Source of the DNA: Paramecium tetraurelia
Taxonomy: Eukaryota
Direction of reading: 5' to 3'
Length of the DNA: 64,000 bases
NCBI GenBank assembly: GCA_000165425.1
Contig: CT868185.1
Coordinates: 372,001-436,000, forward strand
The notes under the pieces were generated by a model. That model saw nothing but the letters and a program-made list of their open reading frames with translations. It was not told the DNA's origin and did not search any database. Position numbers and translations under genes: made by a program. This document shows positions 38,479 to 64,000 of this stretch, one piece after another (within the stretch, counting starts at the first letter, position 1; every line of letters starts with the position of its first letter).

Positions 38479-41400
38479 ATGTAATAATTTGAAATACAAT
38501 TGAGAGGAGGAGGCTGTGGAAAAGCTAAACCAATTTTAAAGGTTGAAGAAAATTTAATTATCGGTGTGCCCAAGGATTTATTGATTAAACTAGAAAATTA
38601 GATTAACATTATCAATACAAAAGCCACACTTTTAGTTGATCCTTAACAAAGAAATGAAGTAATAATTGCAATTTAATGGTTTATATACAATAGAGAGCAT
38701 TTAAATACTTTTTGTGTTAACCAAAATTTAACTTAATTAATATATACAAAATCATTGAATTCTGCTAGAGATTTGCTAAAAATTCTTCCTGTTTATTTAA
38801 GATCTTCATGGTTTTTATGCTATTAAGTACTTTAAATCTGTAATGACTTTTTGAGAATTATATATTCATTCTAAATACAAAATGAGGGTAGAGAAATGGA
38901 ATTAACTATGCAATAAGAATTACTATAAGATGTAGAGGAAATTAAATAGAGTTAGATATTGAATAAGCAAATTTATGGAGTACAGGAATAGAATATGAAA
39001 TACCTCTTATGAAAATAATGTTGATGAATTGTCAAACCAATTCAGAAGAAGGAAAAAATTTATTAATAAATATTGTTAAAAATGTAGCTTAGTCAGCTTT
39101 GGCAATGTCACCTACTGAAGACTTAATCCCAAGTCTTATTGAAGGAGCTAAATTTTTATTTTTACAATATAAAGACAAAGTATTATATCCTGAAGAGGTA
39201 TATGCTACTTATTATTTATTCCAAACTCTTAAATGGTCTATTGTGAGGCAATTAAAATCATAGTACTCAGTTTATAATCAAATGAAATAACTAAAAGATG
39301 CATTTCAATAATATATTCTAAGTTCAGATAATTGGATCATTCATTTTAGTTGGATATCAATGATAATGGATATTTTAGCATATAGACCTATTCTTGATAA
39401 ATTTGAAATTGTTAAAGGTTCTCCAATTGAATAATAATCAATGTGGAACAATTTAATTGAAAATAACTTAATTTTAAGTCTTCCATATAATAGAAATTAA
39501 GGTTCTATATTGTTATTTCAAAATCAAGTAAAATATTTTAGCAAAGAAATAAATAATATGTTAGAATAATAGAGTATTCCCAAGTTTAAATTAATTTCAG
39601 AATCTCTTATAAACGGGCAATTTTCAAAATAAATTAATCTATGGAATTTCTATAAAGATTTTACCTTTAAGAAAAAGCAATAAACTACTAGAAGGGAATA
39701 TGAAATAATTTTACAAAATAATGATTTATTATTTATAGAGAAGTAAATTGAAAGATTTAATTTTTAGTTAGATAGGTTAATTCCTCTTTACTAATAAATT
39801 TAAGAATCATTTACAGATTATTTTTAAATATAGGATTAATAGGATAATGCATAGCTTTAAATCAAATTACTCTAAGATGATTATAATGTTTTTAGAAAAT
39901 AATTTTTAGATGGATATAAATAGGCCTTATATTATCTACTTTTTATCATAGAAAGAAGTACTATTGAGTTTGAAAAGTTAAGGTCACTTTTTCCTTGTTT
40001 TGAAAAATTTGAGATTAAAGATAAAGAAAAATTAGAGAAGATTTTTTAAATTATTGAAGAATTTATTAAAGTCAAATTTTTTACCTTATACGAAGATTTT
40101 ATTTCAAATTTTCTAGAAATGATCGAGTATTTGAGCTATATTTCTGAAATTAGTTTAAATCCAATGTCAAAACAGTAAATTAATCTAGAGGAAGTAAATT
40201 CCAAATTTTAGATTCAAAATCACTTAAGTTATCAATAAAATTCCTAAAATTCATTAATATTATAATAGTGCATAATAAATATAAAGGAATTTTAACAAAA
40301 ATTTTATATCTCAGCATCAATTATTATAAAAACACATGATTAAAATATCAAAATTACTCCGTTCTAAATATAGGCTATGTCACATGCTATATGCTCAGGG
40401 TAATGGATCAAAATAATAAGGAAACAATTAGGTGATAGTTTTTCAGATAGATTTGATTTGAGTCAAAATTAAGTTAAAAATAAAGAGGATATCGAAAAAT
40501 TATATAGAAATTGTATTTTTAGCCTATCAATTTTAAAGCTGATGAAACAATTTTGCTATATCCACTAATACAAAATGAACATATTTTACTAAAACAAAGA
40601 AGAAGAAAAAAGTGTCGCAAATCAAGAGTAATAAAGGTTATATAAAGACTGTAAATTAATGTTAATCAATTAGTTAACATAATAAAAGGAAGAATTAGAT
40701 TTTATTTTGAAATCAAAAGATATTGATAAGGGTAGTATTTAAAGTAAGGAAAAAAGAAAATAACTCCTTAAATAAATAAAAACAGATTAATAGAGAATCC
40801 AAAGTGAATATGAAAATATTATAAGCTAATAAACGAAAACAATAATATCATAGGTTAGTAAATTCATGCAAGAAGCCTAGTTTATCGTTTAATAAAATTA
40901 AAATGAATATTATGACTTTGATGCTTTAAAAAGTTAAATGGGAAAATATGATAGTATCATAAGAGAAATTGAAAATAATTAAGGATAATTTACCAATAGT
41001 CCAAGAGATGAAAAAAAATTGACTTTCTAACATTGGATCACAAAGTATAAGAATTTAGATTTCTGTCATTTTTGTGTTGATGAAGATTTGACAATGATAA
41101 AGGATACAAATAAATAACTGAAATTATTAGAACTATTGTTAATATTAATTCTAAATTAACTTTAATAACCTGACAACAAAGAAATTTAACTTCATTTCAA
41201 TAACTTTAATACATAATTATAACAAATAGAAACTAAATTTAACATTAAGAAATCAATTACTACTTTTATTGAAAGTTTAAAGGGAAATAGTTAATTAGAG
41301 AGTTGTGAATGTATCATTTAAAGTAATTAAGAGATTGATTAATATGATTAGTAAATTGACAAACGGAAAGGCTAATAAATTGAGTAAATTGAATCAACCT

Positions 41401-44400
41401 TATAAGAAACTTTAGGTTTCTTTTCATTAAAATAATAAAGTTAGGATAAAATACCTCAAACTTTAGATCCTTTATACTTAAATATAATAAATAATCTATG
41501 TGAACAATTGACAATAAAAAAGTCAATATTTGATGTATTTGATTTAAACAATGATTATAAAATTAGAGAATGCTTAGTTTATAATTTAATAAAGCTTTAA
41601 TAAGGAATTAAAGAAGACAAAATAGTAGAGTTTTCATCAAAAATGATTCAATACCTTTGGGTTTTCGAAAAAGATTAAAGAGTTAGAAATCTATTGAAAA
41701 ATAAGGAATTAATTGAAATGTAAAAACTTGTTTTTTCAAAGGATATCAAGTCAACATCAGAATAAATAAAATAAGAAATGAAATTAAGAATCAACAGCAT
41801 AGAAAGTATTTCATAAGAATTAAGACTTCAAGGAAATTCTCAAATAAAAGAGCATCTTAAATAATAACTCAAGCAAGCTTATGAAGAACTTGAACAATAT
41901 AATGATAATATTACTGAAATGTCAGAAAAAATGGATATAAGTTTAATATTTTTAAAGGATATATCAAAGGATGTGAAGTAAATAAAAAGTTAAATTGATA
42001 ATTTATAAGAGAACTTAAATTAAGTTGGTGACGATATTCGTAAATTAAAAGGAAAAAGATATGATGAATTATTAGAAATAAGAAAATAAAAGATATTATT
42101 ATAATCTAGATTAGCAGAAGTAGATTCTGTATATGTATAATTAAAAACTATTGAATATGATCCTGTTACGGGGGAAAGTATTAAATCCAAAGATGGAGTA
42201 ACAATAACCAATTTAATGAGTGAATAATGGAATGATTTTACTGGAGAAGTTAATGAATTCATTTGGGATGAATCTAAATCAAATGATGTTATGTTACTTT
42301 CAGGAAATGCTGGTTCTGGTAAAAGTAAAGCAGCCAGAAAAATTGAAGAATTTCTATGGAAATAAAGAGAAATTAATTCGAAATGGATACCAATCTTTGT
42401 ATCACTTCCAACTTTAAAAAATCCAAAATATAATTTATTTGAATAAGCTTTAGAATCTGATAATTATTAATTTGATAAATATTAACTAAGAGAATTTAAA
42501 GATGCGATTTAAAATAAAAAAGAATTTATCATTTTAATACTTGATAGTTACGATGAAATGAAATAAGATTGTATCTAATAAAATCTAATTACAACGAACA
42601 AGCTAATTAATGATTTGAATATTGATGAAAAATAAAAATAAGTCAAGATAATCATCACAACCAGAAAAGAAATATTAAACACCTTGGGTTATTAAACTTG
42701 GTTTTATGGGAATAGCATAAGCAGTTTAAAAGAAGTTTAGATCTAGGATTTTGATGAAGGTTAAAAAAGTAATTATTTAATTCAATATGCTGAACTTAGT
42801 GTAAAAAGAAAAATAAGAGCAGTATATGATTTCTTGAAATAGATTGCATAATAAAATTTTAATTTAGATGAATTTTTAAGAATATGGTACGATGTAAATG
42901 TAAAAGTTTAAAATGGCATTTAAAATTCATATAAAGAATAATCAGAGTCAATTTTTGAAAGCTCCTCGAGGGAAGAATTAATTGAAAAAATTTTAGAGCA
43001 TTCTTCATTTAATTATTTAAAAGAGGAATAAATTACAGGACTCAGGAAAGATTTGGCATCCTTATGGAGTGTTTATAAATTTGAAAAGGCCATCGAAAAC
43101 GTAGGTATTTCTGATTTATTATCAACTCCCTTCATGTTTGAAATTATTGTCTAAGTTTTACCTAATATGGCAAAGAAATAGCAAGGTTCGATGGATTTAA
43201 AAAATAGATTTGTTAAGAGTTATCTCAGTATTATATAAAAATCTAGTTTCTCTAAAATTTTATAAGAGAGTTACAAAAATAATTTAGATAAAAAAGAAAA
43301 TAATTAGGTAATTTTGCCATCTTTTGATGGAAAAAAAAGCCAAAAAATTAAATATTATGAGTAACCAGAATTATAAGCAAAAACCGTTTAACTTTTAGAT
43401 AAATTGGAAAGCTTCAAGTTTTTTTAATTTTACTCAATTACCAGCATTCTTAAAATCCATGGCTATGACTTATTAGTTGATAATAAGTCGTTTAATATCT
43501 ATCCAGATATAGAATATGTAGTTTAAGCTTTGAAGATGAGAAAGTATACAATATTTGAGTTCTATGAGAGCTTCATTCATTTTTATCATGATTAATAAAT
43601 TCAAAAGTTGAGAGAGACAGGTAAAATTTCAAATTGGGAAGGTTTTTAAATAGATATTCTTTAATTTTCATCTAATTTAGCAATAGATATGACTATAAAT
43701 TAACTATCTTAAATCACCTATTAACAAAAAGGAAAATTAAAATTATCAAATAATTATAATAGGTAATAAAATGATGATGATTGGTTTGATGATTATTTTA
43801 ATGATTCATAATAGGAACTTGATTATAATAAATTAATACGAAGTTGTATTCTCTTAAATGCTAAAGGAAGTAACTATTCCTTTACTCACAAATCTATTTA
43901 AGAATTTTATGTTGCTAAATATATCATAGACTTGTTGCTTTAATCTGGTTCTTAATTTTTGAATGAAGAAAATTTTGATTAGAAATATGCTGCCAGATTG
44001 ATAGAATAATTATATAATAAACCTGAATTAAATATTTGCAAGGATCATTTTAAAGGAGTATTAACTTTTATTAAAGAAAAAATAAGTATTCTAGATAATA
44101 TCAAAAGAGTTCTTATTAATATTGCTAAATTATCTAAAAATAAGGAATATATTTATGCTGCTTCAAATAGTATTTTCTTGTTATCTTAACTGGATGTGTA
44201 TTTAGGATACGAAAATTTTTCAGAAATTTAGTTAATTGATACAAATATCTCAGGTTTAAGTTTTTGTAATTCAGATCTTAGTAAATCTAAATTTACTAAT
44301 ATTAATATTAATTCTTGCAATTTTAATTATGCTAATTTGACAGATGTTGAATGGAACAATGTAAGATGTAAAGAAAAACCATTTTTAAAAGAAGATGAAC

Positions 44401-47400
44401 AAGTTAGACTAGTTGAATTTTCTTCAAATGGCAAATTAATTGCATCAAATGGAAAAGGAAATTTAGTAAGTCTTTGGGATGTGGAAAGTTATAAAGTAAT
44501 ATAACAATTAGATGGTCATCAAGATTAAATATTATCAGTTGCTTTTTCAGCTGATAATAAAACTCTAGCTTCTGCTAGTAAAGATAAAACTATAAAATTA
44601 TGGGATATTTAGAATCCATAAATTAAGTCTTTTTTGATATTTACAATAGATTATCACGACCATCCAGTCACAGGAGTCAAATTCACTTTAGATGGAAAAA
44701 AAATAGTTTCAGTTGATAGTTCAGGAACTTTGATAATTTGCAATTTGGAATTTATCACAGAAAAACCAAATGATATTATATTTTAGTGTCAATAGGAAAT
44801 CTTGGTTTACACTTTGACATAAGATGATTAATTGATTGCCTTTGGATTAGACGATTCTAGCATTAAATTAGTTGAAGTAAAAACTAGTAATGAAAGGATT
44901 TTAGTAGGTCATACTGGAAAGATTTCAGCCTTAGCTTTTAGTAAGGAAGGAAATAGATTAGTATCTGCATGTACAAATTTACTATTATTATGGGATTTGA
45001 AAGATAAATGTAAATGCTAAGTTTTATCTTTTTAAGAATATTAAATCTAATATTTAACCTTACCCAATGAAAGAGAAATAGTCATTGGAGCAGAAAACTA
45101 TTTAGCCTATGGGGAATTTTAGTATGATGATTCTGCCTATCTTGCTAATATATAGTATTCCTATCCTGTTTACTTATTCCCTAATTCTAATTTTGCTGTT
45201 ATTGTTTAAGATTAAACACTATTAATATTAGATCTTATTACTTAAGCAATTATTAATAGTATATATTTTGATAAAAAAATAACCTAAATTGATATTACTA
45301 GTAATGAATAGAGATTAATAATAAACGAAAAATATTATAATTAAAGATTTTTAGATTTAAATACTTTCTAGGAAGTAGTGCTTAGTGAAAGCGAGCAAAG
45401 TTCATTTTATTATCACAATTTAATATTTGAACAATGTGAAAAGGAAATTATTATTTATGATGATAAATGTAAATAATGTTGTGAATCAGAAGATTATAAA
45501 ATTATTTCCTATCCAATAACTTATTTTTCATTTTCAACTAACTATTAAATATTGGCTATGATAGATGAATATTACAAAAAAATATGTTTATATGATTCTA
45601 AAGAACTAAAATTGATGGATAATTAAATTGAAAATAGAAATAGTGTTTGTTCAATGGCATTTTCCCCTTGCAAGCCTATACTATCTACAGTGTATGAAGA
45701 TGGAAGTTTATATTTTTGGAATATTAGCAAAGCTCCTTATGAGTATGAGAAATTCAATGACATAGATGAGGGCATTCAAATAGAATACATCATTTATTCT
45801 CCTGATGGCTCATTATTAATTATTTAGACTAATGATTAGAAAATCAGAATTTTAGATGAGATTAATGGATCAGTAATAAAGATCCTTGATTAATATAAGC
45901 CGGAAAGGAATATTATTTTAGTGTCTTATGATAATAATACCTTAGCTATTAATCAAATATCTAGTAAGAATTAAATAATATTATGGAACATAAACAAGAA
46001 TGAAGAAAGAGTTTTAGAAATTCAATATGAATATACTTACTCCCTCATAATTCAATTTTGCCCAGATGAAATATCTTTAGTGTGTTTATACAATGAAAAC
46101 CTAAGGTTTTGGAATTACATATCAGGAGAGTTAATTATTAATTATTAACTTCCTTGGGATTCAACATATAAATGTATTAGTTTTTCTAAAAATGGTAATT
46201 TATTTGTGACTGGTGGGAATTACATTGGGGTTTGGAAATATTTTGACAATAAAATTGAAATGATTAATGCTTTTCAACCTTACAGGAAAATCAATTAATT
46301 AATGTTGATTGATGATGACTAAAATCTTATTTATCTTACTAAGGATTAAATAAAAATAATTCCTTTATCAAAATGTAATTTAAAGGGAATAATTTGTACT
46401 TCAAAATAATTTGCCTAATTTTTAACAAATGGATACCTTGTTACGAGAGATTATAGAGGTATTGAAATTTTTGATTGGAATTAGTAGAAATTAATATCTA
46501 GTATCAACTGTTCTTATCATTATCATGTACAACTCTTTTAAGATGGCTTACATTGCATAATTTCAAATGGATCAAATATTTGGAAGTAGAATATTCATTC
46601 GAAAAAGAAAATCTTTAATATCACTATTTGCGAAGAATGTTAATCTCTCAAGCTAAGTAAAAATGATTAGGTTCTAATTTTATAATGTAAAAATACCATA
46701 AAACTATTTAATATCTAAGACCCTTAAAATATATTTGAGATTTAAACTTATAAAAATTAAGAATTATAATAATTTTCATGGACATGTAACAATGATTATA
46801 TATGTTACATATCGAATTCTGATTTTGTCATTCGAGAAATAAAAACCTAATAAAAAATTAAATTTATAACTCCAAAAAGTAAAATACTTCAAGTAAATTC
46901 ATTTGATAGTAATAATAAAATATTTATACGAAATAAGGAGGGTTCAGGTATCTTTGATCTAAGTTCTTAAAAATTTGAAGTTTTTAAAGAATTATTTTAG
47001 GAATCTGCAATATCTTATGATGGATAGTTAATAGCTTGTAATTATGATACATACTCATAAAAATTGAAATTTTTATGACATTCAAAATGATAAAGATTTT
47101 CCAGATAATAATTCTAGTCATATAGTTCCAATCAAATTTTCTAGGAATGGCAATTTATTGCATTACTATAAAGAGCATAACTAAGCAATAGTAGGTTCTC
47201 TTGATGAAAATAAATAACTAAAACTTCTCTGTTCTTTCGAGTGTGGATCTGATGTAGATGAAGTGTCAGTTACACCTTCTTTTGGTTTTATATCTATTAA
47301 GTAATCAAATAGACTTAAATTAATGAATTTGAATTGGATGTCATAAGCATAAATAGTAAGTATAAATTAATCGAATGAAAAGGGTGACAATAATTATTCT

Positions 47401-50400
47401 TTTGTAATATCTTCTGACAATTCAAAAATTATATCTGGATATTCTTAATCTATTAAATCATATAGTTTAGATGCTAATTCAAAATAAAATATTGATAGAA
47501 GTGTTCCTTAGAAAATAAATTGTTTAGTATAAATTGATTTAAATACTGTTAGTATTGGTTGTGGTAAGAAGATATATCTGAATTAACTTAATAAATCTGA
47601 AGATCTAGTACTAGGAGAACATGAATACAATATAACATGCCTCAGTTACTCATAGATAACATCATTACTAGCATCTGGTAGTGAAGATGAAAAGATATTT
47701 TTATGGAATGTGAATGCTCAAAAGAAAATAGCAGTATTTGAAGGTCATAGAGGGTGGATTAATTAATTATCTTTTTCTCCTGATGGATAATGTTTGGCCT
47801 CTGCAAGTGAAGACTAATAAATTAAATTATGGAATATTGAATAAAGTGAATAATCAAATATTTCAAAAGGACATTAAAAATGTGTAAACTAAGTTGCCTT
47901 CTCAAAAGATGGTCTTATTATTGCATCATGTAGTGCAGACTGTTCAATTATATTATGGGATTTAATAGAAAAAAACTTTATTATTATGTTAAAAGAACAT
48001 ACTGCAGATGTGCGTTGTCTAGAATTCTCTTTTAGTTCTAAATGGTTGGCATCAGGAAGTATTGATGGATCAATATGTTTGTGGGATGTTAAATTTCCAT
48101 AGGAGACTACTTTATACTGTAAAATAAATGAGCTTTATTTATATCCGGATTTCTTATGTTTTGCTCCATCAGATTGTTTTGCTACTATTTCAAATGATAG
48201 AGGTTAAAAAATGAAATAAAAAATAGTTACTAAAATTTAAGTTTGGAGTTTGGATTAAATAGATAAAAAAGATGATAAAAAATTGGAAATCTAAAAATAT
48301 GGGATCAATCCTATGTGTTTATCTGATCGTTATAGAGATGAGGATTATATATTTTAAGGTTATGATACTCTAGTAAAGGTTCATAATTTATCAAATGACT
48401 AGATTGAAATCCTTGAAGGACATTCATCTAAAGTTGTAATTATTAAATCATGGGATTATGATAGACAATTATTATCAATAGATAATAAAAATAATATGAT
48501 TATTTGGTAAAAAACAAACAATAGTTGGAAATAGCAATCACAAATTTAATTAGAACCAGGCACTGTTTAAAATGATATAATTGATTCTCAATATCAAGAT
48601 TAGTTTGTATCCATAAATAGTAATGCTAATGCTATTATCATATCAAATCTTAATTAAATGTAAAAGTAGAGGCCTTTTATTGATTTAGATATAAAATTTT
48701 GGAGAAGTTATCTATCAAACAGTTAATAATTATTTATAACAATGGGTGACTAATAAATAACAGTGATAGATAGCTGTTCTGGAGAAATTAAATTTAAAAT
48801 TGAGAATCCTATCAATTCAGATCAGTCAATTATATCCAATGATGATGGATTTTTAGCTATTTTAGAAAGGTATTCAAATAAGATCTTTATTGTTGATATT
48901 TTCTAAAAAATAAGAAGATGTAAATTTAGAATTTGAAGAAGCTCCTAAACTTTTTTAATTTAGCAAGGATGATTCAAATATTCTATACACAGCATCAAGA
49001 AGATGTACTATTATGAAGTGGAACATAAAAAATAAATAAAACGAAATTGTTGTTAATTTAGAATTTACATATTCAGATGATATCTTATAGATTTCTAACT
49101 CATGCAATCATATAATCTATCATAAAAATAAAATGCAACTTTTATTAGTCAATCTCAATAATTAATAACAGTATTAAAAAGATATTCAAAATTTGAATGG
49201 TATAGCAGTCATTTCTTAAAATGAAATTTTAGTAGCCTTGGCTAATAAATATTATACAATTTATTTATGGAATTATGAGAAATCAATTACTACAGAAATT
49301 ACTTTGTTTCAAAAACAATCAATTCAAAATTTATAATTTATAAATGATGACAATGAATTGGTTTGTTGTTAAAAAGAAACAATTTGTATCTTTTCTGTTT
49401 AAAAAGATTTTCAATTAAAATTAAAGAATATTTGGTAGATAGAAAGTTGTTAAAATTATACTTTCTGTCCTAAGCATTTATCGGTTTTATGTTATAATAA
49501 TAGTTGGAAGCAAGATATTTGGTGTGGATATAAAAGAATCAGCTTTTTGAATCCTGGATAAAGTATGATTTTAATAGATGAACAATAGAAACCATTAAAA
49601 TTTTCATCAAATTAAGATGGAAATTATATTGTATAATTAAATTAATAAGGTTTTATCATATGGGACTGGAAAAACGAAAAATAAATATTAAATAGTGATC
49701 AATGGTCTGGAAATAATGCTATGCTTATAGATTTAAAGATATTGGTAATAGCAAATGAAGAGGAAATCAATATTTTAGATATTAAAGAATTGCATAATAT
49801 TAAATTACTCTCATCGCTTTCTTTCGATTAACCTATCCAAAATATTTCATTTGCTTCAAATTAGGAATATTTTGTTTGTGGATTTGATACAAAAATAAAG
49901 TTGTGGAAACTTTTAAAGGATGGATAATGTTAATAAGTAGCTGTTTATGATATAAAATATAATGGCAAAACAAATCCTGTTATTTCACCAAATGGAAAAT
50001 TTATAGTTTACAAAGCATAAGAATCATATTAAATAATTAGGATTAAATAATTACATACATTAGAGTTAAACGATCAAAGTGTATTTGGCCTTGTATATTC
50101 ATCAGATTTCTAAAATTTAATTACACTTATAAATGGACATCCTATATTGTTAACTCCTACTTTGGAAATTATAGAGAGCTAATTAGAAGGAGTTATAAAA
50201 GATAATGAAGCCAAATCAATTGTATCAGCTTCTGTGGATTCAATATTTGCTATTTTATATGATGCTTTCATTTTAATAGTTAAAATTATAGATTAAAAGA
50301 AATTAATTGTGATTAGGTAGATATCATCAGAAGGTTTCAGAGATTGTATTACTATCAGTATCAATCATTTTGGAACTCAATTAATTGTTGGCAACCCATC

Positions 50401-51363: not shown

Positions 51364-51456
51364 TCTACAGGTTACTTCACCTATTTTCATTCCTGAAATA
51401 TATCAAGATTCCTTCTGATAAGAAAAAAGAGATGAGTATCCAAAAGTCGATATAAT

Positions 51457-52016: not shown

Positions 52017-52754
<738 letters not shown>

Positions 52755-52767
52755 AATAAATTAAATT

Positions 52768-54233
52768 ATGAAACCTAAACCAAAAATTGAAACTAATAAT
52801 ACAATTGATTTATTATCAAGGACAACTCAAAATCTCAATTCTTATCAATAAGATCTCCTAAATACAGTTCGGAGCATCAATTCAAAGTCCAATTCCAACC
52901 CCAATATTTTTTGGAAAGAAGTTCTCAAACAAAAGTATACTCAAGACTCACCCCTGAAAAGGAGGCAATAGAAAAATATGGAAATAGCAACTGCATTGCA
53001 AAAGCAAAATCAGATTATCCTATCAAAATACTATAAACCTTAGAACAATCAATCGAAAAGTTAATAAACTTTGTTGTTAAATCAACTTGTCGCCAAAATA
53101 AATCCGAGTAATGAAATCAATATGTTCAAACAATCTTAACCATCCTCAATTGATCCTAGACCCCTTACATCCAAAATCAATTAAACAAACTCTGCTTAAA
53201 ACAGAAGATAAGAATCAATAGGATCCAAATATCAAAATGTTTATGATGGAATATATCAGAAACCAAAGAAAGTACACTCACATTAGATATCTCCGGTGCA
53301 CTCAAGGCAATTATCCTTATAGCAACCTTAATCAATAACAAATAGAGTATAAAAATATTTTGAAAGCATTAAATTTAATACAGAAGATGTCTAATTTTAG
53401 TACTACTTAGGAAAAATCAAGGCAGTTTTCACTCAGCCTTGTAAAGATGATTACTTTAGTTCTCTCTACAGAGACCATTTCTTTTAAACTTATTAAGGGA
53501 TTTATGCAGCATCTCATCTAAGACTAGCTGATCCAAATGATTTCAAAAGGAAAGCAGTCAAAATTAAGAGGAAAGAATAACATATAGGTATTAAGAATTT
53601 ATAGATTAGATAAAATCTCTGTGATCTTTGATTTGGATGAAACTTTAGTTCATTGCAATGAGTCAATATTGTAGAAATCTGATTTCCATTTGAATATCAA
53701 GGTGAGTCCCAATTTAATGGTTAAAGCTGGAGTCAACATACGGCCAGGAGCAATTGAATTATTGGAGTCTTTGGTAGAGCACTTTGAAATTATAGTATTC
53801 ACTGCTTCACATTAATGTTATGCTAAACAAGTATTGGATTATTTAGATCCTGAAAATAAGTTGATTTCACATAGATTTTTTAGAGATAGTTGCTGTTAAA
53901 CAACAGGAAGTATGTATACTAAAGATTTGAGAATATTTGACAGACCATTAAGTCAAATGGTTTTAGTTGATAATGCATCTTACAATTATGCTTGGTAATT
54001 GGATAATGGAATACCTATTGTTCCATTTTATGATAATAAAGATGACCGAGAACTTTGGGGGTTATAGACTTATTTAATGGGAATGCGAGGGGTTTCAGAT
54101 GTTAGAGAGTACAATAGGTAACAGTGGTTTCAACTTTATTTTTAGAAACAAATTGAAATTAAACCAATTCTATGATGCCTCTAGTGCTGCTGGTGTTTTT
54201 GAAAAGCTTTTTCAATAAAAAATGGAAATATGA
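52768..54233 (+). CDS. CTD small-phosphatase-like (NIF/FCP1 HAD family) protein
   Basis: VIFDLDETLVH, NIRPG, FEIIVFTAS, YAKQVLDYLDP, KDLRIFDRPL, LVDN, NGIPIVPF. Confidence 0.9.
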
Positions 54234-54267
54234 TTTTAGTACATTTCTTATTTAATTTTATAATCTA

Positions 54268-55150
54268 ATGCAATAAACAACCGATTATGATGAAATGCAG
54301 CATTATCTCAAGCTGGCTTAGGATGGGGACACTGAGGCTTAATTCAAAGTAGGTTTAATGTATGAGGATGGGAAGGGGGCACAGTAAAATATTCAAGAAT
54401 GCATTCAATGGTATTTTCAATATTATTTATCTCAGGTATCAATTGGCTGCCAACAAACATGCTTAAGCAGCACATAATTTGGCATCCATTTATTATTTAG
54501 GCAGAGTTGTTGCTCCTGATTATAAAATTGCATACAAATACTTTAGCAAGGCTGCTGAACTATAAAATGAATAAGGAATGTTCTAACTGGGCTTGATGCA
54601 TTTATTTGGATAAGGTGTAGAATAGGATTTTGAGAAGAGTAGAGGTTGGTTTGAAAAGGCTGCTAAATTAGTACTTATTCATTTTTAATCACTTTTCAAG
54701 GGATCAGTATCAGCGATGAACAACCTCGGCAACATTTATAGATCCGGCATTGGAACTCATATTCAAATTGAGGAGGCCAAGAAATATTATCGGATGGCAG
54801 CAGATAAGGGTGATTATTGTGCTATGACCAACTTGGCTACAGTCTTATTGTAAAGTAATCCAACTGAAGCTTTTGATTGGTACCTCCAGGCAGCCAAAGG
54901 TGGCTTTGAAAATGCTTAGTATAATCTGGCTGTGGTTTACGAAGAAGGAACTGGAACCAAATTGAATTTATAATAGGCACTATACTGGTATAAATAAGCA
55001 GCACAGGCTGGTAACATTGAAGCAAAAGAAGCAGTGACCCGTTTAAGTCCTATAGTTCAAAATTAACCATAAAATGACAAATAATAGTAAGGTTAAAATA
55101 CATAATAATCGTCTGCCAAAAAAGGTGGGTGTGGCTGTATTGTATTTTGA
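54268..55150 (+). CDS. Sel1-repeat protein with C-terminal CaaX motif
   Basis: AQFKVGLMYEDGKG, AMNNLGNIYRSGIG, AQYNLAVVYEEGTG; ends KKGGCGCIVF*. Confidence 0.88.
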
Positions 55151-55184
55151 TATTATAACTATTTATTATATATATAAATTAATA

Positions 55185-56990: not shown

Positions 56991-57311
56991 TAATATAGTA
57001 CCGGATAGAAACTGATATATCTAAAATAATTATAAACTGATAGAGGAGTTTCCCTTATCTTAAGAAAAATAATAATTTTATGTTGTTAAGGTAATTCAAA
57101 AACTTTCTATGCATTATAGTTTTGACATAAAGACATTAAGAATGAATTTTTGCAATCATTTGCCATTAGAACTTAAAATTATAGAATCAGCATAAATCTT
57201 CATTTGATTACTTAGAATGTAATCAAATTCAACAGAAATCCTATTGGAGGTATTTATGATGTATATAATATAGATTATATAGTAGTTTGAATATTTTTAA
57301 TAATGTTTATA

Positions 57312-60300
57312 TCATTCTCTTGCTCCTTTTTATCTGAATAGCTAAATGATTGATTTACCATTTTAAGTGATTTTTGAATCTTTTACTATGCATTAATTGG
57401 CTAATAATAAGGATTATCTGGAAAACGATTTATAACAAATTAGTCTGTATTCTTTTTTAATATTTCCAGATAATTAATTTTATTATTCTTAATTTTCTTT
57501 GTTATGTTTTATATTTTAATCATTCTCAATTTATTCAACTGAATATAAATTTATAGATCCATCATAAATTGCAGCTGCAATATCAGTTCCATTTGGACTG
57601 AAAGTAAAATCCTAAATTTAGTCATTTTAATTATTTATTATCAAATTTGGATTATTGTTATCTATTTGGTCAGAATTTGCTAAATCCCATAAATAAAGTG
57701 ATCCAACTTCATTGCCAGCAATTAATAGATTTCCTAAGGGATTAATATCTAAAGAAATAAATTTATCTTCATATTGTATCTTCCGAATCAAAATTAATTT
57801 ATTTTCCTCTAGAATTTTAAATATTAAAATTTAATTAGTGTAAGAAATTGCAATTATTGAATTTATGGAAGCTCTTTTAATGACTTACCTTTCAAGTTAA
57901 CTTACTAATTCACTTTCTAATTAGCTCTCTATAATATTCAAAGTAGAAGTAAACAATATAGGACTCCCATTTATTAATGTAATTAAATTTTAGAAATCTG
58001 ATGAGTATTAAAGGCCAATTACAGTTTGATCGTTTAACTCTAATGTTTGTAGTTATTTAATCCTAATTAATTAATATGATTCTTATGCTTTGTAAACTAT
58101 AAATTTTCCATTTGATGAAATAACAGGATTTGTTTCACCAGTATATTTTATATCATAAACAGCTACTTATTAACATTATCCATCATTTAAAAGTTTCCAT
58201 ACCTTTATTTTTTTATCAAATCCACAAACAAAATATTCCTATGTTGAAGCAAATGAAATACTTAGGATAGGTTAATCGAAAGAAAGCGATGAAAGTAATT
58301 TAATATTATGCAATTCTTTAATATCTACAATATTGATTTCCTTTCGATTTGCTATTACCAATGTCTTTAAATCTATAAGCATAGCATCATTTCCAGACCA
58401 TTGTTCACTATTTAATATTTATTTTTCGTTTTTCCAGTCCCATATGATAAAACCTTAATAATTTAATTATACAATATAATTTCCATCTAAAGTTGATGAA
58501 AATTTTAATGGTTTCTATTGTTCATCTATTAAAATAATACTTTATCCAGGATTTAAAAAGCTGATCCTTCTGTGTCCATCCCAACCAACTCTATAACTTA
58601 AAAAGGATAAATGCTTAGGACAAAAATTATAATTATAACAATATTCCACCTACCAAATATTCTTTAATTTTAATTGAAAATCTTCTTAAACAGAAAAAAT
58701 ACAAATTGTTTCTTTTTAACAACAAACCAGTTCAGTATCATCATTTATAAATTATAAATTTTGAATTGATTGTTTTTGAAACAAATTAATTTCTGAAGTA
58801 ATTGATTTCTCATAATTCCATAACTAAATTGTATAATCACTAATAATCAAAGCTACTAAAATTTCATTTTAAGAAATGACTGCTATACCATTCAAATTTT
58901 GAATATCTTTTTAATACTGTTATTAACTATTGAGATTAACTAAGAAAAGTTGCATTTTATTTTTATAATAAATTATATAATTGCATGAATTAGAAATCTA
59001 TAAAATATCATCTGAATATGTAAATTCTAAATTAACAACAATTTCGTTTTATTTATTTTTTATGTTCCACTTTATAATAGTACATCTTCCTGATGCTGTG
59101 TATAGAATATTTGAATCATCCTTGCTAAATTAAAAAAGTGTAGGAGTTTCTTCAACTTCTAAAAATACATCTTCTAATTTTTAAGAAATATCAACAATAA
59201 TGATCTTATTTGAATATTATTCTAAAATAGCTAAAAATCCATCATCATTGGATATAATTGGCTGATTTGGATTGCTAAGATTCTCAATTTTAAATTTAAT
59301 TTCTCCAGAACAGCTATCTATCACTGTTATTTAATATTAATCCATTGCTATAAATAATTTTTAACTGTTTGATAGATAACTACTATTAAATTCAAATTTT
59401 AAATCAATAAAAGGCATCTACTTTTACATTTAATTAAGATTTGATATGATAATAGCATTAGCATTACTATTTATTGATACAAAGTAATATTGAAATTGAT
59501 AATAAATTATATCAACTTAAACAGTACCTGGTTCTAATTAAATTTGTGATTGCTTTTCCCAACTATCTTTTGTATATTACCAAATAATCATATTATTTTT
59601 ATTATCTATTGATAATAAATGTCCATCCAATGATCTAATTATTACAACTTCAGACTAATGTCCTTTAAGCTATTCACTTTAATCAGTTGATAAATTATGA
59701 ACCCTAATTAGATTATCATAACCTTAAAATATAACATCATCTTATAAACAAATAGGATTGATCCAATATTTTTAGATTTCCAATTTTTTATCATCTTTTT
59801 TATCTATTAAATTCAAACTCCAAACTTAAATTTTCGTCACTATTTTTTATTTACTATCTTTTTATTTGCCTCCATCATTTGAAATAGTAGCAAAACAACC
59901 TGATGGAGAAAAACGTAAGAAATCTGGAAATAAATATAGCTCATTTATTTTATAGAATAAAGTTGTCTCCTGTGGAAATTTAACATCCCACAAACATATG
60001 GATCCATCATAACTTCCTGATGCTAACCATTTAGAACAAAAAGAGAATTCTAAACAACTCACATATGCAGTATGTTCTTTTAACATAATAATAAAGTTTT
60101 TTTCTAATAAATCCCATAAAATAATTGAGCAATCCCCACTACATGAAGCAATAATAAGACCATCTTTTGAGAAGGCAACTTAGTTTACACATTGTTAATG
60201 TCCTTTTGAAACATTTGATTATTCACTTTATTCAATATTCCATAATTTAATTTATTAGTCATCACTTGCAGAGGCCAAACATTATCCATCAGGAGAAAAA

Positions 60301-63300
60301 GATAATTAATTAATCCACCCTCTATGACCTTCTAATACTGCTATTTTCTTTTTAGCATTCACATTCCATAAAAATATCTTTTCATCTTTACTACCAGATG
60401 CTAGTAATGATGTTGTGTATGAGTATCTGAGACTTATAACATTGTCATTGTGATCTCCTAGTGGTAGTGGTTTTTCATTTTAATTAACATTTATAAGATA
60501 TATCTTGTTATCACAACCAATACTAACAGTATTTAACTCGATTTATACTAAACAATTTATTTTCCCAGGAGCACTTAGATCAATATTTTACTTTTCATTA
60601 GGATCTAAACTATATGACTTAATCCATGAAGAATACCCACAAATTATTTATGAATTGTCAGAAGATATTACAAAAGAATAATTATTGTCACCCTTTTCAT
60701 TCGATTAACTTATACTTACTATTTATGATTATAACATCCAATTCAAATTCATTAATTTAAGTCTATTTGATTACTTAATAGATATAAAACCAAAAGAAGG
60801 TGTAACTGACACTTCATCTACATCAGATCCACACTCGAAAGAACAGAGAAGTTTTAGTTATTTATTTTCGTCAATCGAACTTACCATAGCCTAGTTACGC
60901 TTGTTATAGTAATGCAATAAATTGCCGCTCCTACAAATTTAGATTGGAACTATCTGACCAGAATTATTATCTGGATAATTTTTATCATTTTGAATGTCAT
61001 AAAATTTAAAGTTTTATGAGTAACTATATCTATCATATTTATAATTACAAGCTATTAACTATCCATCATAAGATATTGCAGATTCCTAAAATAATTCTTT
61101 AAAAACTTCAAATTTTGAAGATATTAGATCAAAGATACCTGAACCCTCCTTATTTCGTATAAATATTTTATTATTACTATCAAAAGAATTTACTTGAAGT
61201 ATTTTACTTTTTGGAAACATAAATTTAATTTTTTATTGGGTTTTTATTTCTCTAATTAAAAAATCAGAATTCGATATGTAACATATATAGTCATTGTTAC
61301 TTGTCCAAGAAAATTAATATAATTTTTAATTTGTATAAGTTTGAATCTCATATATATTTTAAGGGTTTTCTATATTGAATAATCTTATGGTATTTTCACA
61401 TTATAAAATTAGAACCTAATCGTTTTTGCCGAGTTTGAGAAATTAACATTCTTCGCAAATAGTGATATTAAAGATTTCCTCTTTCGAATAAATATTCTAC
61501 TTCCAAATATTTGATCCATTTGAAATTATGCAATGTAAGCCATCTTAAAAGAACTGTACATGATTATTATAACATTTGATACTAGATATTAATTTCTACT
61601 AATTCCAATCAAAAATTTCAATACCATGCGAATTTGTCGTAGCAAGGTATCCATTTGTTAAAAATTAGGCAAATTATTTTGAAGTAGGAATTATTCCCTT
61701 TAAATTACATTTTGATAAAGGAATTATTTTTATTTAATCCTTAGTAAGATAAATAAGATTTTAGTCATCATCAATTAACATTAATTAATTGATTTCCCTG
61801 TAAGGTTTAAAAGCATTAATCATTTCAATTTTATTGTCAAAATATTTCCAAACCCTAATGTAATTCCCACCAGTCACAAATAAATTACCATTTTTAGTAA
61901 AACTAATGCAATTATATGTTGAATCTGAAGGAAGTTAATAATTAATAATTGTCTCTCCTGATATGTAATTCCAAAACCTTAATTTTCGATTGTTTAAACA
62001 CACTAAAGATATTCCATCTGGGCAAAATTGAATTACGAGGGAGTAAGTATATTCATATTCAATTTCCAAAACTCTCTCTTCATTCTTGTTTATGTTCCAT
62101 AATATTATTTAATTCTTACTATATATTTGATTAATAGCTAAGGTATTATTATCCTAAGACACTAAAATAATATTCCTTTCCGGCTTATATTAATCAAGGA
62201 TCTTTATTCCCGATCCATTTATCTCATCTAAAATCCTTATTTTCTAATCATTAGTCTAAATAATTAATAATGAGCCATCAGGAGAATAAATGATGTATTC
62301 TATTTGAATGCCCTCATCTATGTCATTGAATTTCTCACACTCATAAGGAGCTTTGCTAATATTCCAAAAATATAAACTTCCGTCTTCAAATACTGTAGAT
62401 AGTATAGGCTTGCAAGGGGAAAATGCCATTGAACAAACACTATTTCTATTTTTAATTTAATTATCCATCAATTTTAGTTCTTTAAAATCATATAAAGATA
62501 TTTATTTGGAATACTTGTCTATCGAAGCCAATATTTAATAATTAGCTTAAAATGAAAAATATTTTATTGATGAATAGCAAAAATTGTTATATTCTTCTGA
62601 TTCTTGAAATTATTGGCCATCTTTATCATAAATAATAATTTCATCTTGACATTTTTCAAATATAAAATCCTGATAATAAAATGAATTTTGTTCGCTTTTA
62701 CTAAGAACTACTTCCTAGAAAGTATTTAAATCTAAAAATCTTTAATTATATTCTCCTATTATTAATCTCTATTCATTACTAGTAATATCAATTTAGGTAA
62801 TTTCTTAATCAAAATATATACTATTAATAATTGCTTCAGTATTAAGATCTAATATTAATAGTGTTTAATCTTAAACAATAACAGCAAAATTAGAATTAGG
62901 GAATAAGTAAACAGGATAGGAATACTATATATTAGCAAAATAGGCAGAATCATCATACTAAAATTCTCCATAGGCTAAATAGTTTTCTGATCCAATGACT
63001 ATTTCTCTTTCATTGGGTAAGGTTAAATATTAGATTTAATATTCTTTAAACGATAAAACTTAGCATTTACATTTATCTTTCAAATCCCATAATAATAGTA
63101 AATTTGTACATGCAGATACTAATCTATTTCCTGCCTTACTAAAAGCTAAGGCTGAAATCTTTCCAGTATGACCAACTAAGATCTTTTCATTCCTAGTTTT
63201 TACTTCAAATAATTTAATAGTAGAGTCTGCTAAGCCTAAAGCAATCAATTAATCATCTTATGTCGAAGTGTAAACCAAGATTTCTTATTGACACTAAAAT

Positions 63301-64000
63301 ATAATATCATTTGGTTTTTCTGTGATAAATTCAAAATTGCAAATTATCAAAATTCCTGAACTATCAACTGAAACTATTTTTTTTCCATCTAAAGTGAATT
63401 TGACTCCTGTGACTGGATGATCGTGATAATCTATTGTAGATATCAAAGACTTAATTTATGGATTCTAAATATCCCATAATTTTATAGTTTTATCTTTACT
63501 ACCAGAAGCTAGAGTTTTATTATCAGCTGAAAAAGCAACTGATAATATTTAATCTTGATGACCATCAAATTGTTATATTAATTTATAATCTTCCACATCC
63601 CAAAGACTTAATAGATTTCCTATTCCATTTGATGCAATTAATTTGCCATTTGAAGAAAATTCAACTAGTCTAACTGGTTCATCTTCTTTTAAAAATGGTT
63701 TTTCTTTACATCTAACATCTTTCCATTCAACATCTGTTAAATTAGCATAATTAAAATTACAAGAATTAATATTAATATTGGTAAATTTAGATTTACTTAG
63801 ATCTGCATTACAAAAACTTAAACCTGAGATGTTAGTATCAATTAACTAAATTTCTGAAAAATTTTCATATCCTAAATAAACATCCAATTAAGATAATAAG
63901 AAAATACTATTTGAAGCAGCATAAATATATTAATTATTTTTTGATAATTTAACAATATTAATAAGAACTCTTTTTATATTATCTAGACTACTTATTTTAT
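57312..64000 (-). CDS. Inverted paralogue of the NACHT-pentapeptide-WD40 gene, 3' part (pentapeptide plus WD40); 5' end beyond the window
   Basis: Reverse complement matches 44078-50800 and ends LFRQKGARE*. It is in frame at the two sites where the + copy is shifted. Confidence 0.88.

What the first reader, a model, noticed from the sequence alone, without database searches (positions are those of the whole stretch)
38479..64000. Inverted pair of giant NLR-like NACHT-pentapeptide-WD40 genes with patchy WD40 divergence: candidate ciliate non-self recognition locus
Seen: two convergent paralogues ~6.5 kb apart. Near-identical blocks alternate with divergent patches rich in amino-acid changes and small in-frame indels. 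For example, YHNLIFEQCEKEIIIYDDKCKQCCESENYK (~45410-45500) contrasts with YQDFIFEKCQDEIIIYDKDGQQFQESEEYN (~62590-62680). A third family fragment (35855-36420) and a WD40 remnant (37570-38130) lie just upstream. Established: in fungal NWD receptors (Podospora HET-D/HET-E), NACHT-WD40 proteins sense non-self and their WD40 propellers evolve by concerted evolution and positive selection. Inference: this is a birth-and-death cluster of innate-immune-like STAND receptors with an uncharacterised ~1250 aa N-terminal region, possibly sensing endosymbionts or pathogens.
Basis: partly seen in the sequence, partly recalled or inferred. Interest (0 to 1): 0.75.

Follow-up and report, generated by a model that had tools for sequence, protein, structure and literature searches.

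The report
Paramecium giant NACHT-WD40 gene cluster
Two inverted copies of a roughly 4,100-residue NLR-like switch protein, part of a larger Paramecium-only gene cluster, are kept as a patchwork by gene conversion; no immune role or positive selection is shown.

Summary
In this Paramecium tetraurelia macronuclear window, read with the ciliate code, 44079-51052 (+) and 63998-57004 (-) form an inverted repeat, 90.7% identical over the main 6,816-column alignment. The two stop codons lie 6.5 kb apart. Divergence is far patchier than chance.

The + gene (38479-50800) has intact NACHT motifs, a pentapeptide stretch and about 2,300 residues of WD40 propellers. Its first ~1,250 residues match no family and are seen only in Paramecium.

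Three single-base frame breaks in the + gene are contradicted by contigs of other sequencing runs, the third only in part. Read through, it has 4,105 codons and no stop, so it is probably intact.

The patchiness comes mostly from mosaic ancestry. Synonymous differences are patchy too. Patches have dS 0.31-0.34 against 0.13 elsewhere. The largest patch groups copy A with P. octaurelia proteins, not with copy B. The NACHT core is homogenised even with a paralogue only 47% identical overall.

dN/dS is about 0.5 overall and about 1 at most in patches. The WD40 repeats are not alike as in fungal HET-E.

Two decayed family relics lie upstream, and three more gene models of the family lie on the same scaffold. 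I read it as an NLR-like STAND family that grows, decays and converts. A defence role is plausible but untested.

The parts
38479..50800 (+). Gene A (+ arm). It reads as 4,105 codons across three single-base breaks. The public annotation starts it with GSPATT00010712001 (P0006, 2,646 aa), which stops at the second break.
   Evidence: ORFs and translations. Homologues P0007 and P0008 map on it in frames 1>3>1>2. There are no in-frame stops when read through with X at the breaks.
38943..38946 (+). Break 1: one base missing in an A run, relative to the homologues.
   Evidence: The frame changes here. One contig of run X16 (depth 4.9) has an extra A behind 38943; the other three runs do not cover the place.
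47070..47074 (+). Break 2: an extra T (T5 against T4 in the - arm).
   Evidence: One base is left out in all contigs that cover it in X16, X5 and X13; X20 does not cover it.
48899..48905 (+). Break 3: one extra base in a T4/A6 homopolymer context.
   Evidence: One base is left out in X20 (4.3 of 4.3), X16 (17.7 of 17.7) and X5 (10.9 of 48.7), but not in X13 (0 of 69.6). DNA contigs end close to this place. Unresolved.
38479..40100 (+). N-terminal conserved domain, specific to Paramecium. It is all-alpha and follows a disordered head that carries the nearly invariant LRGGGCG motif.
   Evidence: No Pfam match and no PDB sequence match at E<=1 for 38949-42100. The P0007 1-609 model has pLDDT 69.8, is all helices, and gives only generic solenoid or bundle matches. 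There are 44 representatives among 1.84 billion proteins; 10 of 10 checked are Paramecium.
40100..42284 (+). Variable helical or coiled-coil linker, then a conserved pre-NACHT segment.
   Evidence: Identity to P0011 is 0.12-0.36 in the linker and rises before the NACHT. Pfam gives only sub-threshold coiled-coil-type hits.
42285..42791 (+). NACHT NTPase domain, with GNAGSGKS at 42303, LILDSYDE at 42534 and IITTR at 42651.
   Evidence: Pfam PF05729, E 2.8e-13, 50.5 bits against a cutoff of 26.7. Motifs are located. The model of 42102-44300 has pLDDT 80.7. Its best fold matches are NLRC4 (E 1.3e-8), NOD2, NLRP3 and NAIP5.
44214..44369 (+). Pentapeptide repeats between the NACHT module and the WD40 region. 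The - arm equivalent starts at 63836.
   Evidence: PF00805 E 1.7e-5 (24.7 bits, cutoff 20.2). PF13599 E 1.3e-6 is below its cutoff. Located.
44380..50797 (+). WD40 beta-propeller region, about 2,140 residues and several propellers.
   Evidence: Many WD40 and beta-propeller Pfam matches in P0001, P0003 and P0004.
57312..63998 (-). Gene B (- arm). One open frame of 2,228 codons covers pentapeptide and WD40 sequence. It runs off the window, so its 5' part is not visible.
   Evidence: No database protein of 1,225-5,000 aa matches it more closely than 88%.
44079..51052 (.). Left arm of the inverted repeat. It includes about 250 nt beyond the stop codon.
57004..63998 (.). Right arm of the inverted repeat, cut by the end of the window.
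45354..45580 (+). Divergent patch 1 (- arm about 62732-62507). It is hypervariable in every paralogue and orthologue compared.
   Evidence: Identity 0.78-0.88. Amino-acid identity is 0.41-0.73 to all eight other rows. dS is 0.29 and dN/dS 0.65-0.71.
47364..47660 (+). Divergent patch 2 (- arm about 60711-60411).
   Evidence: dS is 0.38-0.39 and dN/dS 0.39-0.42.
48255..48400 (+). Divergent patch 3 (- arm about 59811-59676).
50055..50500 (+). Divergent patch 4 (- arm about 58048-57610), about 70% nucleotide identity. The two arms have different ancestry here.
   Evidence: A is 0.73-0.87 identical to P. octaurelia P0007 and P0026 but 0.39-0.57 to B. B is nearest to P0008 and P0009, at 0.55-0.66. 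dS is 0.29-0.34 and dN/dS about 1.0.
35756..36419 (+). Relic 1: a decayed piece matching residues ~905-1090 of P0007/P0008-type proteins, from the N-terminal linker.
   Evidence: tblastn gives 54-59% identity (71-74% in the last 31 residues), with in-frame TGA stops and a frame change.
37582..38232 (+). Relic 2: the decayed C-terminus (residues 3978-4196) of a P0011-like paralogue, directly upstream of gene A.
   Evidence: 74% identity, E 1.3e-65, with one stop and one frameshifted stretch.
52958..55147 (+). Unrelated genes in the spacer: a NIF/FCP-like phosphatase (52958-54172) and a Sel1-repeat protein (54203-55147).
   Evidence: Pfam PF03031 E 1.8e-51 and PF08238 E 1.7e-39.

Best explanation
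This is part of a cluster of giant STAND (NLR-like) ATPase genes on one Paramecium tetraurelia macronuclear scaffold. The N-terminal domain these proteins share was found only in Paramecium; the named relatives are all species of the P. aurelia group.

Each protein is built in four parts:
- a helical N-terminal domain of unknown activity, preceded by a disordered head with an invariant LRGGGCG motif;
- a NACHT ATPase module with intact Walker A, Walker B and sensor motifs;
- a short pentapeptide-repeat stretch;
- about 2,300 residues of WD40 propellers.

Inferred mechanism, by analogy with solved NACHT proteins: the repeat region holds the protein inactive and binds a trigger. Nucleotide exchange in the NACHT then drives oligomerisation, which brings the N-terminal domains together as the output.

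Shown here: the patchwork divergence of the two inverted copies is mainly a record of gene conversion among clustered paralogues. Conversion keeps most of the sequence alike and is strongest at the NACHT core, where even a paralogue only 47% identical overall is 95-100% identical. Some propeller stretches are older or were imported from other copies, and they are under weak constraint. Whole copies are also gained and lost, as the relics show.

The + copy is most likely an intact gene that the reference sequence breaks by three homopolymer errors. It appears to be transcribed.

Biological role, inferred only: the lineage-specific expansion, clustering, relics and fast-evolving sensor region fit a surveillance or conflict receptor best. 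I put that at about 0.45. The confidence below is for the structural and evolutionary account.
For: Architecture:
- Pfam NACHT 50.5 bits (cutoff 26.7), Pentapeptide 24.7 bits (cutoff 20.2), many WD40 matches.
- Motifs GNAGSGKS, LILDSYDE and IITTR are present.
- The NACHT-module model has pLDDT 80.7. Foldseek finds 70 PDB matches at E<=0.001, led by NLRC4, NOD2, NLRP3 and NAIP5.

The + copy is intact:
- 0 stops in 4,105 codons when read through.
- 14 of 16 coding indels between the arms are multiples of 3.
- Other runs' contigs restore the frame at 38943 (X16), 47070 (X16, X5, X13) and 48899 (X20, X16, part of X5).
- Derived amino-acid changes are A 97, B 138, ambiguous 128, of 363 differing columns. 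A does not evolve faster than B.
- Contigs of the RNA library X20 cover 17 of 19 bins of the + gene. The intergenic bins 50974-52307 have no cover.

Gene conversion and mosaic ancestry:
- Synonymous differences are over-dispersed: 1.61, reached by 0 of 2,000 permutations.
- dS is 0.31-0.34 in the patches and 0.13 in the rest.
- In patch 4, A groups with P. octaurelia proteins and B does not.
- P0011 and P0012 sit in a deep separate clade for the N-terminal, post-NACHT and C-terminal segments. For the NACHT core they fall inside the A group with 100/99 support.
- Sites where the two species differ but the paralogues within each species agree number 8 of 26 variable sites in the NACHT core. In six other segments they number 0-1 of 78-366.

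Cluster:
- P0006, P0047, P0010, P0008 and P0011 lie on one 539,671-bp scaffold, with gene numbers 10712-10729.
- Two relics lie upstream.
Against: - No functional data of any kind exist for this family.
- The N-terminal output domain has no recognisable fold or enzyme signature, so the 'output' step is pure analogy.
- Break 3 is not resolved. DNA run X13 shows only the broken form there, as does most of the depth in X5. All runs are assembled contigs, not raw reads, and contigs of paralogues can lie on conserved parts. One example is a loose end at 38958 in three runs.
- The first ~48 residues of the homologues have no in-frame counterpart upstream of 38488.
- dN/dS is pairwise and approximate. 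Methods disagree: NG86 gives 0.72, LWL85 1.03 and YN00/ML 0.5.
- The longest identical run (136 nt) is not beyond permutation (mean 76, maximum 160). There is therefore no sign of a very recent conversion tract.
- Within the NACHT-core clade the tree is unresolved. Conversion after speciation rests on the 8 site patterns alone.
Confidence: 0.62

Rival explanations
1. These are innate-immune-like non-self receptors, and the WD40 patches diverge because positive, diversifying selection acts on ligand-binding surfaces, as in Podospora HET-D/HET-E.
For: - The amino-acid divergence is strongly patchy: non-synonymous var/mean 6.0, against a maximum of 2.06 in permutations.
- Patch 1 is hypervariable in all nine rows compared.
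- dN/dS is about 1.0 in patch 4 and 1.1-1.4 in 48430-48960, where dS is low.
- The family shows expansion, clustering and relics.
Against: - No stretch has dN/dS clearly above 1 with the two better estimators.
- dS is also raised about 2.5-fold in the patches.
- Patch 4 differs between the arms by ancestry, not by change in place.
- The WD40 repeats within a gene are only 28-38% alike, unlike HET-E-type repeats.
- No HET or other known death or effector domain is present.
- No infection or expression data were available.
Confidence: 0.25
2. The + arm is a recently dead pseudogene, broken by three frameshifts and with a lost 5' end. Only the - arm is functional, and the raised dN/dS reflects neutral decay of one copy.
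For: - The window has three frame-breaking single-base indels.
- Break 3 is present in DNA run X13 and in most of the depth of X5.
- The first ~48 codons of the homologues are not in frame upstream.
- The overall dN/dS of about 0.5 is high.
Against: - There are no in-frame stops in 4,105 codons once the three bases are bridged.
- Contigs of other runs lack each of the three lesions in at least one run. For break 2 this holds in 3 of 3 runs that cover it.
- A has fewer derived amino-acid changes than B: 97 against 138, or 85 against 98 without the last 300-column block, which holds patch 4.
- RNA-library contigs cover most of the gene.
- An ATG at 38479 lies just before the conserved LRGGGCG motif.
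Confidence: 0.12
3. These are giant scaffold or regulatory NACHT-WD40 proteins with a cell-biological role, for example in trafficking, cilia or nuclear events. They have no recognition role, and their clustering and conversion are by-products of local duplication.
For: - WD40 propellers and helical solenoids are common scaffolds. The N-terminal model resembles only generic solenoids and helical bundles.
- Purifying selection dominates: dN/dS is 0.04 in 44079-44380 and 0.43-0.45 outside the patches.
- Some animal NACHT-WD40 proteins, such as TEP1 and NWD1, are not classical immune receptors (recalled, not tested here).
Against: - The N-terminal domain is confined to Paramecium. There are 44 representatives among 1.84 billion proteins, and 10 of 10 checked are Paramecium.
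- There are many paralogues per genome, copy number differs between sister species, and there are decayed relics. This is unusual for core scaffolds.
Confidence: 0.25

Closest known systems
Fungal NWD / HET-E, HET-D, HET-R type NACHT-WD40 STAND proteins (Podospora)
   Same: NACHT followed by WD40 repeats. Multigene family. Sequence exchange between paralogues. Fungal NACHT-WD40 proteins, one of them named HET-E-1, appear as distant hits to the WD40 region.
   Different: - No HET domain; the N-terminal ~1,250 residues match no family.
- The WD40 repeats are not highly alike within a gene (28-38%).
- Here exchange homogenises the NACHT core between genes rather than shuffling repeats.
- The repeat region is about 7 propellers long, not one.
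- A pentapeptide stretch is inserted.
- Positive selection is not shown.
Animal NLRs (NLRC4, NAIP, NOD2, NLRP3)
   Same: These are the best structural matches of the NACHT module: Foldseek E 1.3e-8 to 1e-4, probability 1.00. They share the same Pfam NACHT family.
   Different: The sensor is WD40 plus pentapeptide, not LRR. There is no CARD, PYD or BIR domain. No PDB sequence match was found at E<=0.01. Sequence identity in the fold matches is 10-15%.
Animal NACHT-WD40 or NB-ARC-WD40 proteins (TEP1, NWD1, APAF-1)
   Same: A STAND ATPase followed by WD40 propellers. Pfam Beta-prop_TEP1_2nd and NWD2-type propeller models hit the repeat region.
   Different: No TROVE, CARD or other known N-terminal domain. 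The protein is much longer, and the family is expanded and clustered. The comparison with these proteins' functions is recalled, not tested.
NACHT-pentapeptide-WD40 proteins outside ciliates (Reticulomyxa filosa P0056; metagenomic P0058)
   Same: The precomputed Pfam lists give the same core combination: PF05729 NACHT, PF00805 Pentapeptide and WD40 propellers.
   Different: They are only 24-33% identical over 10-32% of the query, and 1,424-1,473 aa long. They were not among the 44 relatives of the Paramecium N-terminal domain, though I did not scan them for it directly.
Cyanobacterial STAND/WD40 proteins with CHAT, TIR or caspase heads
   Same: Long WD40 arrays behind STAND-type NTPases with a variable N-terminal effector. 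They appear among distant hits to the WD40 region.
   Different: They are prokaryotic, mostly of nSTAND1 type rather than NACHT, and carry recognisable effector domains.

Membership tests
NACHT STAND NTPase (Pfam PF05729) | Profile match above the curated threshold | tested here: met
   50.5 bits against a cutoff of 26.7, E 2.8e-13, covering 164 of 167 profile positions. The whole-protein scan gives 47 bits.
NACHT STAND NTPase (Pfam PF05729) | Walker A (GxxxxGK[ST]), Walker B with acidic residues, and a sensor arginine after the fourth strand. The motif definitions are recalled. | tested here: met
   GNAGSGKS at residue 1099, LILDSYDE at 1176 and IITTR at 1215 of P0001. G68, G71, G73, K74, D151, E152 and R188 are invariant in 37 family rows.
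NACHT STAND NTPase (Pfam PF05729) | NBD plus helical and winged-helix module folded like solved NLRs | tested here: met
   The model has pLDDT 80.7. The top Foldseek matches are NLRC4, NOD2, NLRP3 and NAIP5 (E 1.3e-8 to 1e-4; TM only 0.2-0.3 over the whole multi-domain model).
NLR-like receptor (STAND with a repeat sensor and an N-terminal effector) | C-terminal superstructure-forming repeats | tested here: met
   WD40 propellers span about 2,140-2,300 residues, preceded by pentapeptide repeats.
NLR-like receptor (STAND with a repeat sensor and an N-terminal effector) | A recognisable signalling or death effector domain at the N-terminus | tested here: not met
   No Pfam family at E<=1 in residues 1-560, and only sub-threshold coiled-coil-type hits in 540-1090. 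No PDB sequence match. The model gives only generic helical matches, Z<=12.7 for bundles.
NLR-like receptor (STAND with a repeat sensor and an N-terminal effector) | A role in non-self or danger sensing | not testable with these tools
   No functional or infection data. No paper on this family was found.
Fungal HET-E/HET-D type NWD proteins | N-terminal HET domain (PF06985) | tested here: not met
   The Pfam scans of the N-terminal pieces list no HET match.
Fungal HET-E/HET-D type NWD proteins | WD40 repeats highly alike within one gene (concerted evolution of repeats) | tested here: not met
   No off-diagonal self match by blastp at E<=1e-3, and only one 26-nt DNA self match. Repeat-to-repeat matches are 28-38% identical.
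Fungal HET-E/HET-D type NWD proteins | Positive selection at repeat surface positions | tested here: inconclusive
   Only pairwise dN/dS could be run: 0.5 overall and about 1.0-1.4 in two stretches. No site model or structure mapping was possible.
TEP1-type NACHT-WD40 | TROVE domain N-terminal to the NACHT | tested here: not met
   No such match in the Pfam scans.
Processed or decayed pseudogene (+ arm) | Frame breaks that are real, in-frame stops, and faster protein change than the sister copy | tested here: inconclusive
   The window has three breaks, and each is contradicted by at least one other run. Break 3 is mixed. There are 0 in-frame stops and no excess of derived changes.

The most novel reading that the evidence does not exclude
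The P. aurelia species group carries its own NLR-like surveillance repertoire. Its output is a new kind of N-terminal domain: helical, with an invariant LRGGGCG head. The NACHT core would be kept identical among otherwise very different paralogues, by gene conversion under selection, because the paralogues must co-assemble into mixed oligomers, like sensor/helper NLR pairs or NAIP-NLRC4. The long, mosaic propeller arrays would supply many different recognition surfaces.
Probability: 0.2. Interest if true: 0.8.

Novelty: new variant of a known kind. Interest (0 to 1): 0.5.

Why it matters
I found no paper that describes this family or any NLR-like repertoire in ciliates, though the library searched is incomplete. 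This locus gives a concrete, testable candidate family in a model organism where feeding RNAi and natural endosymbionts are available.

It also shows an unusual pattern: conversion confined to the ATPase core between paralogues that are otherwise only 47% identical, seen in two sister species.

Practically, it suggests that the public model GSPATT00010712001 and the reading frames downstream of it are pieces of one ~4,100-codon gene, split by probable homopolymer errors. If the defence role is wrong, the finding remains a well-documented case of mosaic concerted evolution in a giant gene family.

Tried and rejected
- **Whole genome.** None is held for this window, so copies B (5' part), C, D and E could not be read as DNA. 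No outgroup DNA was available for codon models.
- **Earlier notes of this scan.** None exist for this genome.
- **ESM Atlas.** I dropped it.
- **PDB sequence searches.** The N-terminal 1,050 residues gave 0 matches at E<=1 and the NACHT-to-pentapeptide part 0 at E<=0.01.
- **Fold searches of the N-terminal model.** Foldseek gave no match at E<=0.001. VIA-align gave only generic helical repeats and bundles: Z 12.7 at best for residues 461-609 and about 9-10 for 75-282. That is below what the tool says is meaningful for helical proteins. Residues 283-452 were barely tested.
- **The - arm's own annotated protein.** It was not found among proteins of 1,225-3,899 aa or 3,900-5,000 aa. I therefore cannot say whether the - arm has a NACHT or is complete.
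- **Cover of the - arm.** Only its last ~1 kb was laid. The RNA-type runs X20 and X16 have no cover in 57644-58300, and X16 has none in 56977-57643. Contigs cannot show absence, so this says nothing about expression of the - arm.
- **Recent conversion tracts.** The longest identical run is 136 nt, against a permuted mean of 76 and maximum of 160. There is no signal.
- **The 33-nt intron implied by P0006** (it lacks QIERFNFQLDR). No RNA contig covers that bin, so it stays untested.
- **An in-frame upstream start** matching the homologues' first 48 residues. An ATG at 38344 opens a different frame, and an (ATT)n stretch lies between it and 38479. Unresolved.
- **Literature.** Five searches found nothing on this family. 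Passages read in PMC9004412 and PMC3499355 were irrelevant.

Full report
**What the window is.** Base composition is 22-33% G+C. With the ciliate code (TAA and TAG read as Gln) very long frames open. A database search matches the + strand frame at 99% to a Paramecium tetraurelia macronuclear protein: P0006, 2,646 aa, on a 539,671-bp scaffold. Its gene ID is GSPATT00010712001. The rest of the window carries ordinary genes: a tubulin, a class II tRNA synthetase, a P450, a DEAD-box helicase and DAP3.

**The observation.**
- BLAST of the two regions gives one alignment of 6,816 columns at 90.7% identity between 44079-50853 (+) and 63998-57258 (-). A further 198 columns beyond the stop codons join 50857-51052 to 57194-57004.
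- The genes converge, with stops at 50800 and 57312.
- The quoted peptides lie at 45411-45500 and 62675-62586.
- In a global alignment, 14 of the 16 indels inside the coding part are multiples of three. The other two are single extra bases in the + arm.
- Identity in 150-nt windows runs from 0.70 to 0.99.
- The variance/mean of mismatches per 100 nt is 4.9, against a maximum of 1.47 in 2,000 permutations.

The patchiness is therefore real.

**Gene anatomy.** The + gene has four recognisable parts.
- **NACHT.** The Pfam match is 50.5 bits against a cutoff of 26.7. The motifs GNAGSGKS, LILDSYDE and IITTR are present and invariant or nearly so across 37 family rows.
- **NACHT module fold.** A model of 42102-44300 has pLDDT 80.7. 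Foldseek finds 70 PDB matches at E<=0.001, led by NLRC4, NOD2, NLRP3 and NAIP5. Plain sequence search of the PDB found nothing.
- **Pentapeptide repeats** follow at 44214-44369.
- **WD40 propellers** run to the stop codon.

The N-terminal ~1,250 residues match no Pfam family and no PDB sequence. A model of the first 609 residues of the P. octaurelia relative P0007 has pLDDT 69.8. It is all-helical after a disordered head of 73 residues, which holds the nearly invariant LRGGGCG motif. It gives only generic solenoid and helical-bundle matches. A search of 1.84 billion representative proteins found 44 relatives of this domain. All 10 of the more distant ones that I looked up are Paramecium proteins.

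**Is the + copy broken?** Full-length relatives map on it in four successive frames, changing near 38946, 47060 and 48901. The public annotation ends its first model at the second break.
- Breaks 2 and 3 lie in T or A homopolymer runs. Break 1 lies in an A run.
- I laid contigs of four other public runs on 38301-58300.
  - At 38943, one X16 contig has the missing A. The other runs do not cover the place.
  - At 47070, all covering contigs of X16, X5 and X13 lack the extra base.
  - At 48899, X20 and X16 lack it and X5 lacks it in 10.9 of 48.7 depth. X13 shows the window's form, and the DNA contigs end close to the site.
- Bridged with X, the gene has 4,105 codons and no stop.
- Polarised with five other family proteins, the 363 differing columns split into 97 changes on A, 138 on B and 128 ambiguous. 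A does not evolve faster.
- Contigs of the true RNA library X20 cover 17 of 19 bins of the gene and none of the two intergenic bins that follow.

I conclude that gene A is probably intact and transcribed, and that the reference has homopolymer errors. Break 3 remains open. These are contigs, not raw reads, and contigs of paralogues can lie on conserved parts.

**Why the divergence is patchy.** Synonymous differences are over-dispersed too: var/mean is 1.61, reached by 0 of 2,000 permutations. They correlate with non-synonymous ones (rho 0.35, p 0.02). With YN00 and ML under code 6:

| Region | dS | dN/dS |
|---|---|---|
| Four divergent patches | 0.31-0.34 | 0.67 / 0.64 |
| Rest of the alignment | 0.13 | 0.45 / 0.43 |
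| Whole alignment | 0.16-0.17 | 0.50 / 0.49 |
| Patch 4 (50055-50500) | 0.29-0.34 | about 1.0 |
| 48430-48960 | 0.08-0.10 | 1.1-1.4 |
| Pentapeptide and first WD repeats (44079-44380) | 0.59-0.68 | 0.04 |

NG86 and LWL85 give higher ratios, so these values are approximate.

Sliding-window identities against seven other family proteins show a mosaic.
- A is usually nearest to B.
- In patch 4, A is 0.73-0.87 identical to the P. octaurelia proteins P0007 and P0026 and only 0.39-0.57 to B. B is nearest to P0008 and P0009 there.
- Patch 1 is variable in all rows.

The patches are thus older or imported segments under weak constraint. They are not demonstrated targets of diversifying selection. Within one gene the WD40 repeats are only 28-38% alike, so the HET-E style of repeat homogenisation is absent.

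**Concerted evolution at the NACHT core.** P0011 lies on the same scaffold and is 47% identical overall. It is 95-100% identical to A across A residues 1167-1347. Segment trees place P0011 and its P. octaurelia counterpart P0012 in a deep separate clade for the N-terminal, post-NACHT and C-terminal segments. For the NACHT core they fall inside the A group with 100/99 support. In those trees, rows with under 70% of a segment were left out, so B, P0010 and P0026 are missing from some of them. Sites where both P. tetraurelia paralogues share one residue and both P. octaurelia paralogues share another number 8 of 26 variable sites in the core. In six other segments they number 0-1 of 78-366. This points to conversion in both species after they split, although the tree inside the core clade is unresolved.

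**The wider cluster.** Upstream of gene A lie two decayed pieces.
- 35756-36419 matches the N-terminal linker of P0007/P0008-type proteins, with stops and a frame change.
- 37582-38232 is the C-terminal end of a P0011-like gene, at 74% identity with one stop and one frameshift.

P0047, P0010, P0008 and P0011 carry gene numbers 10724, 10725, 10728 and 10729 on the same scaffold. None of them is the - arm: tblastn identity to it is 71% for P0008 and 81% for P0010, and BLASTP identity to P0002 is 69% for P0047. P0011 was not compared with the - arm by tblastn; in the family alignment its identity to B is 0.11-0.56 in 60-column windows. The cluster therefore holds at least five family loci plus the two relics. 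P. octaurelia has three models of the family on one 553,171-bp scaffold. The C-terminal tree joins A and B with 100/100 support, with P0026 as their sister. The pair is therefore either younger than the species split or was homogenised after it. The spacer between the arms carries a NIF-type phosphatase and a Sel1-repeat gene.

**Comparison with known systems.** The core is a NACHT STAND ATPase with a repeat sensor. That is the logic of NLRs, of fungal NWD proteins, of APAF-1, TEP1 and NWD1, and of many bacterial STAND proteins. The NACHT-pentapeptide-WD40 combination is also listed for a Reticulomyxa protein and a metagenomic protein. The family here differs in four ways:
- its Paramecium-only N-terminal region;
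- the length of the propeller array;
- the clustering;
- conversion focused on the ATPase core.

I found no paper on it. Five searches gave nothing, and the passages I read in two papers were irrelevant.

**Verdict.** I read this as a functional NLR-like STAND gene cluster that evolves by duplication, decay and gene conversion. A surveillance or defence role is the most plausible biological reading, at about 0.45, but nothing here tests it. Positive selection is not shown.

Noticed in passing
window 38943, 39003, 47070, 48886, 48899, 55929: The window differs from contigs of other public runs at single bases, several of them in homopolymers. Examples are 39003 C>A in all four runs and one base left out at 55929 in three runs. 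The reference sequence here seems to carry small errors or stock-specific changes that split gene models.
   Followed up: partly
window 53380-53605: One contig each in DNA runs X5 and X13 joins 53380 to 53605, skipping 224 bases (ends CA..AG) inside or next to the NIF-phosphatase gene. This could be a deletion variant or an alternative macronuclear form.
   Followed up: no
window 53627-53661: Contigs of X20 (RNA) and X16 have loose ends at 53627 and 53661. The rows shown for the DNA runs have none there, but 266 further rows were not shown. This would fit a small intron in the phosphatase gene and suggests that X16 is an RNA library.
   Followed up: no
window 50906: Contigs of X20, X16 and X13 run on from 50906, about 100 nt past the stop of gene A, into unlike sequence beginning TAATCGACTT. 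This may be the 3' flank of another family copy joined in assembly.
   Followed up: no
window 38344-38480: An ATG at 38344 opens a short frame whose start (MTDVF...) faintly recalls the homologues' MNNVFD... An (ATT)5 run then shifts the frame before the ATG at 38479. The ancestral first ~48 codons may have been lost through a microsatellite change.
   Followed up: partly
P0008 (GSPATT00010728001), residues around the P-loop: The public model of P0008 lacks the Walker A motif: it reads ...SNDVIGSSARKIEEF... where the relatives have ...SNDVMLLSGNAGSGKSKAARKIEEF... This is probably a mispredicted intron rather than a real loss.
   Followed up: no
window 2335-4302, 5228-7168, 11839-12804: Long open frames with very long poly-glutamine runs (TAA/TAG-rich) and no Pfam match.
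   Followed up: no
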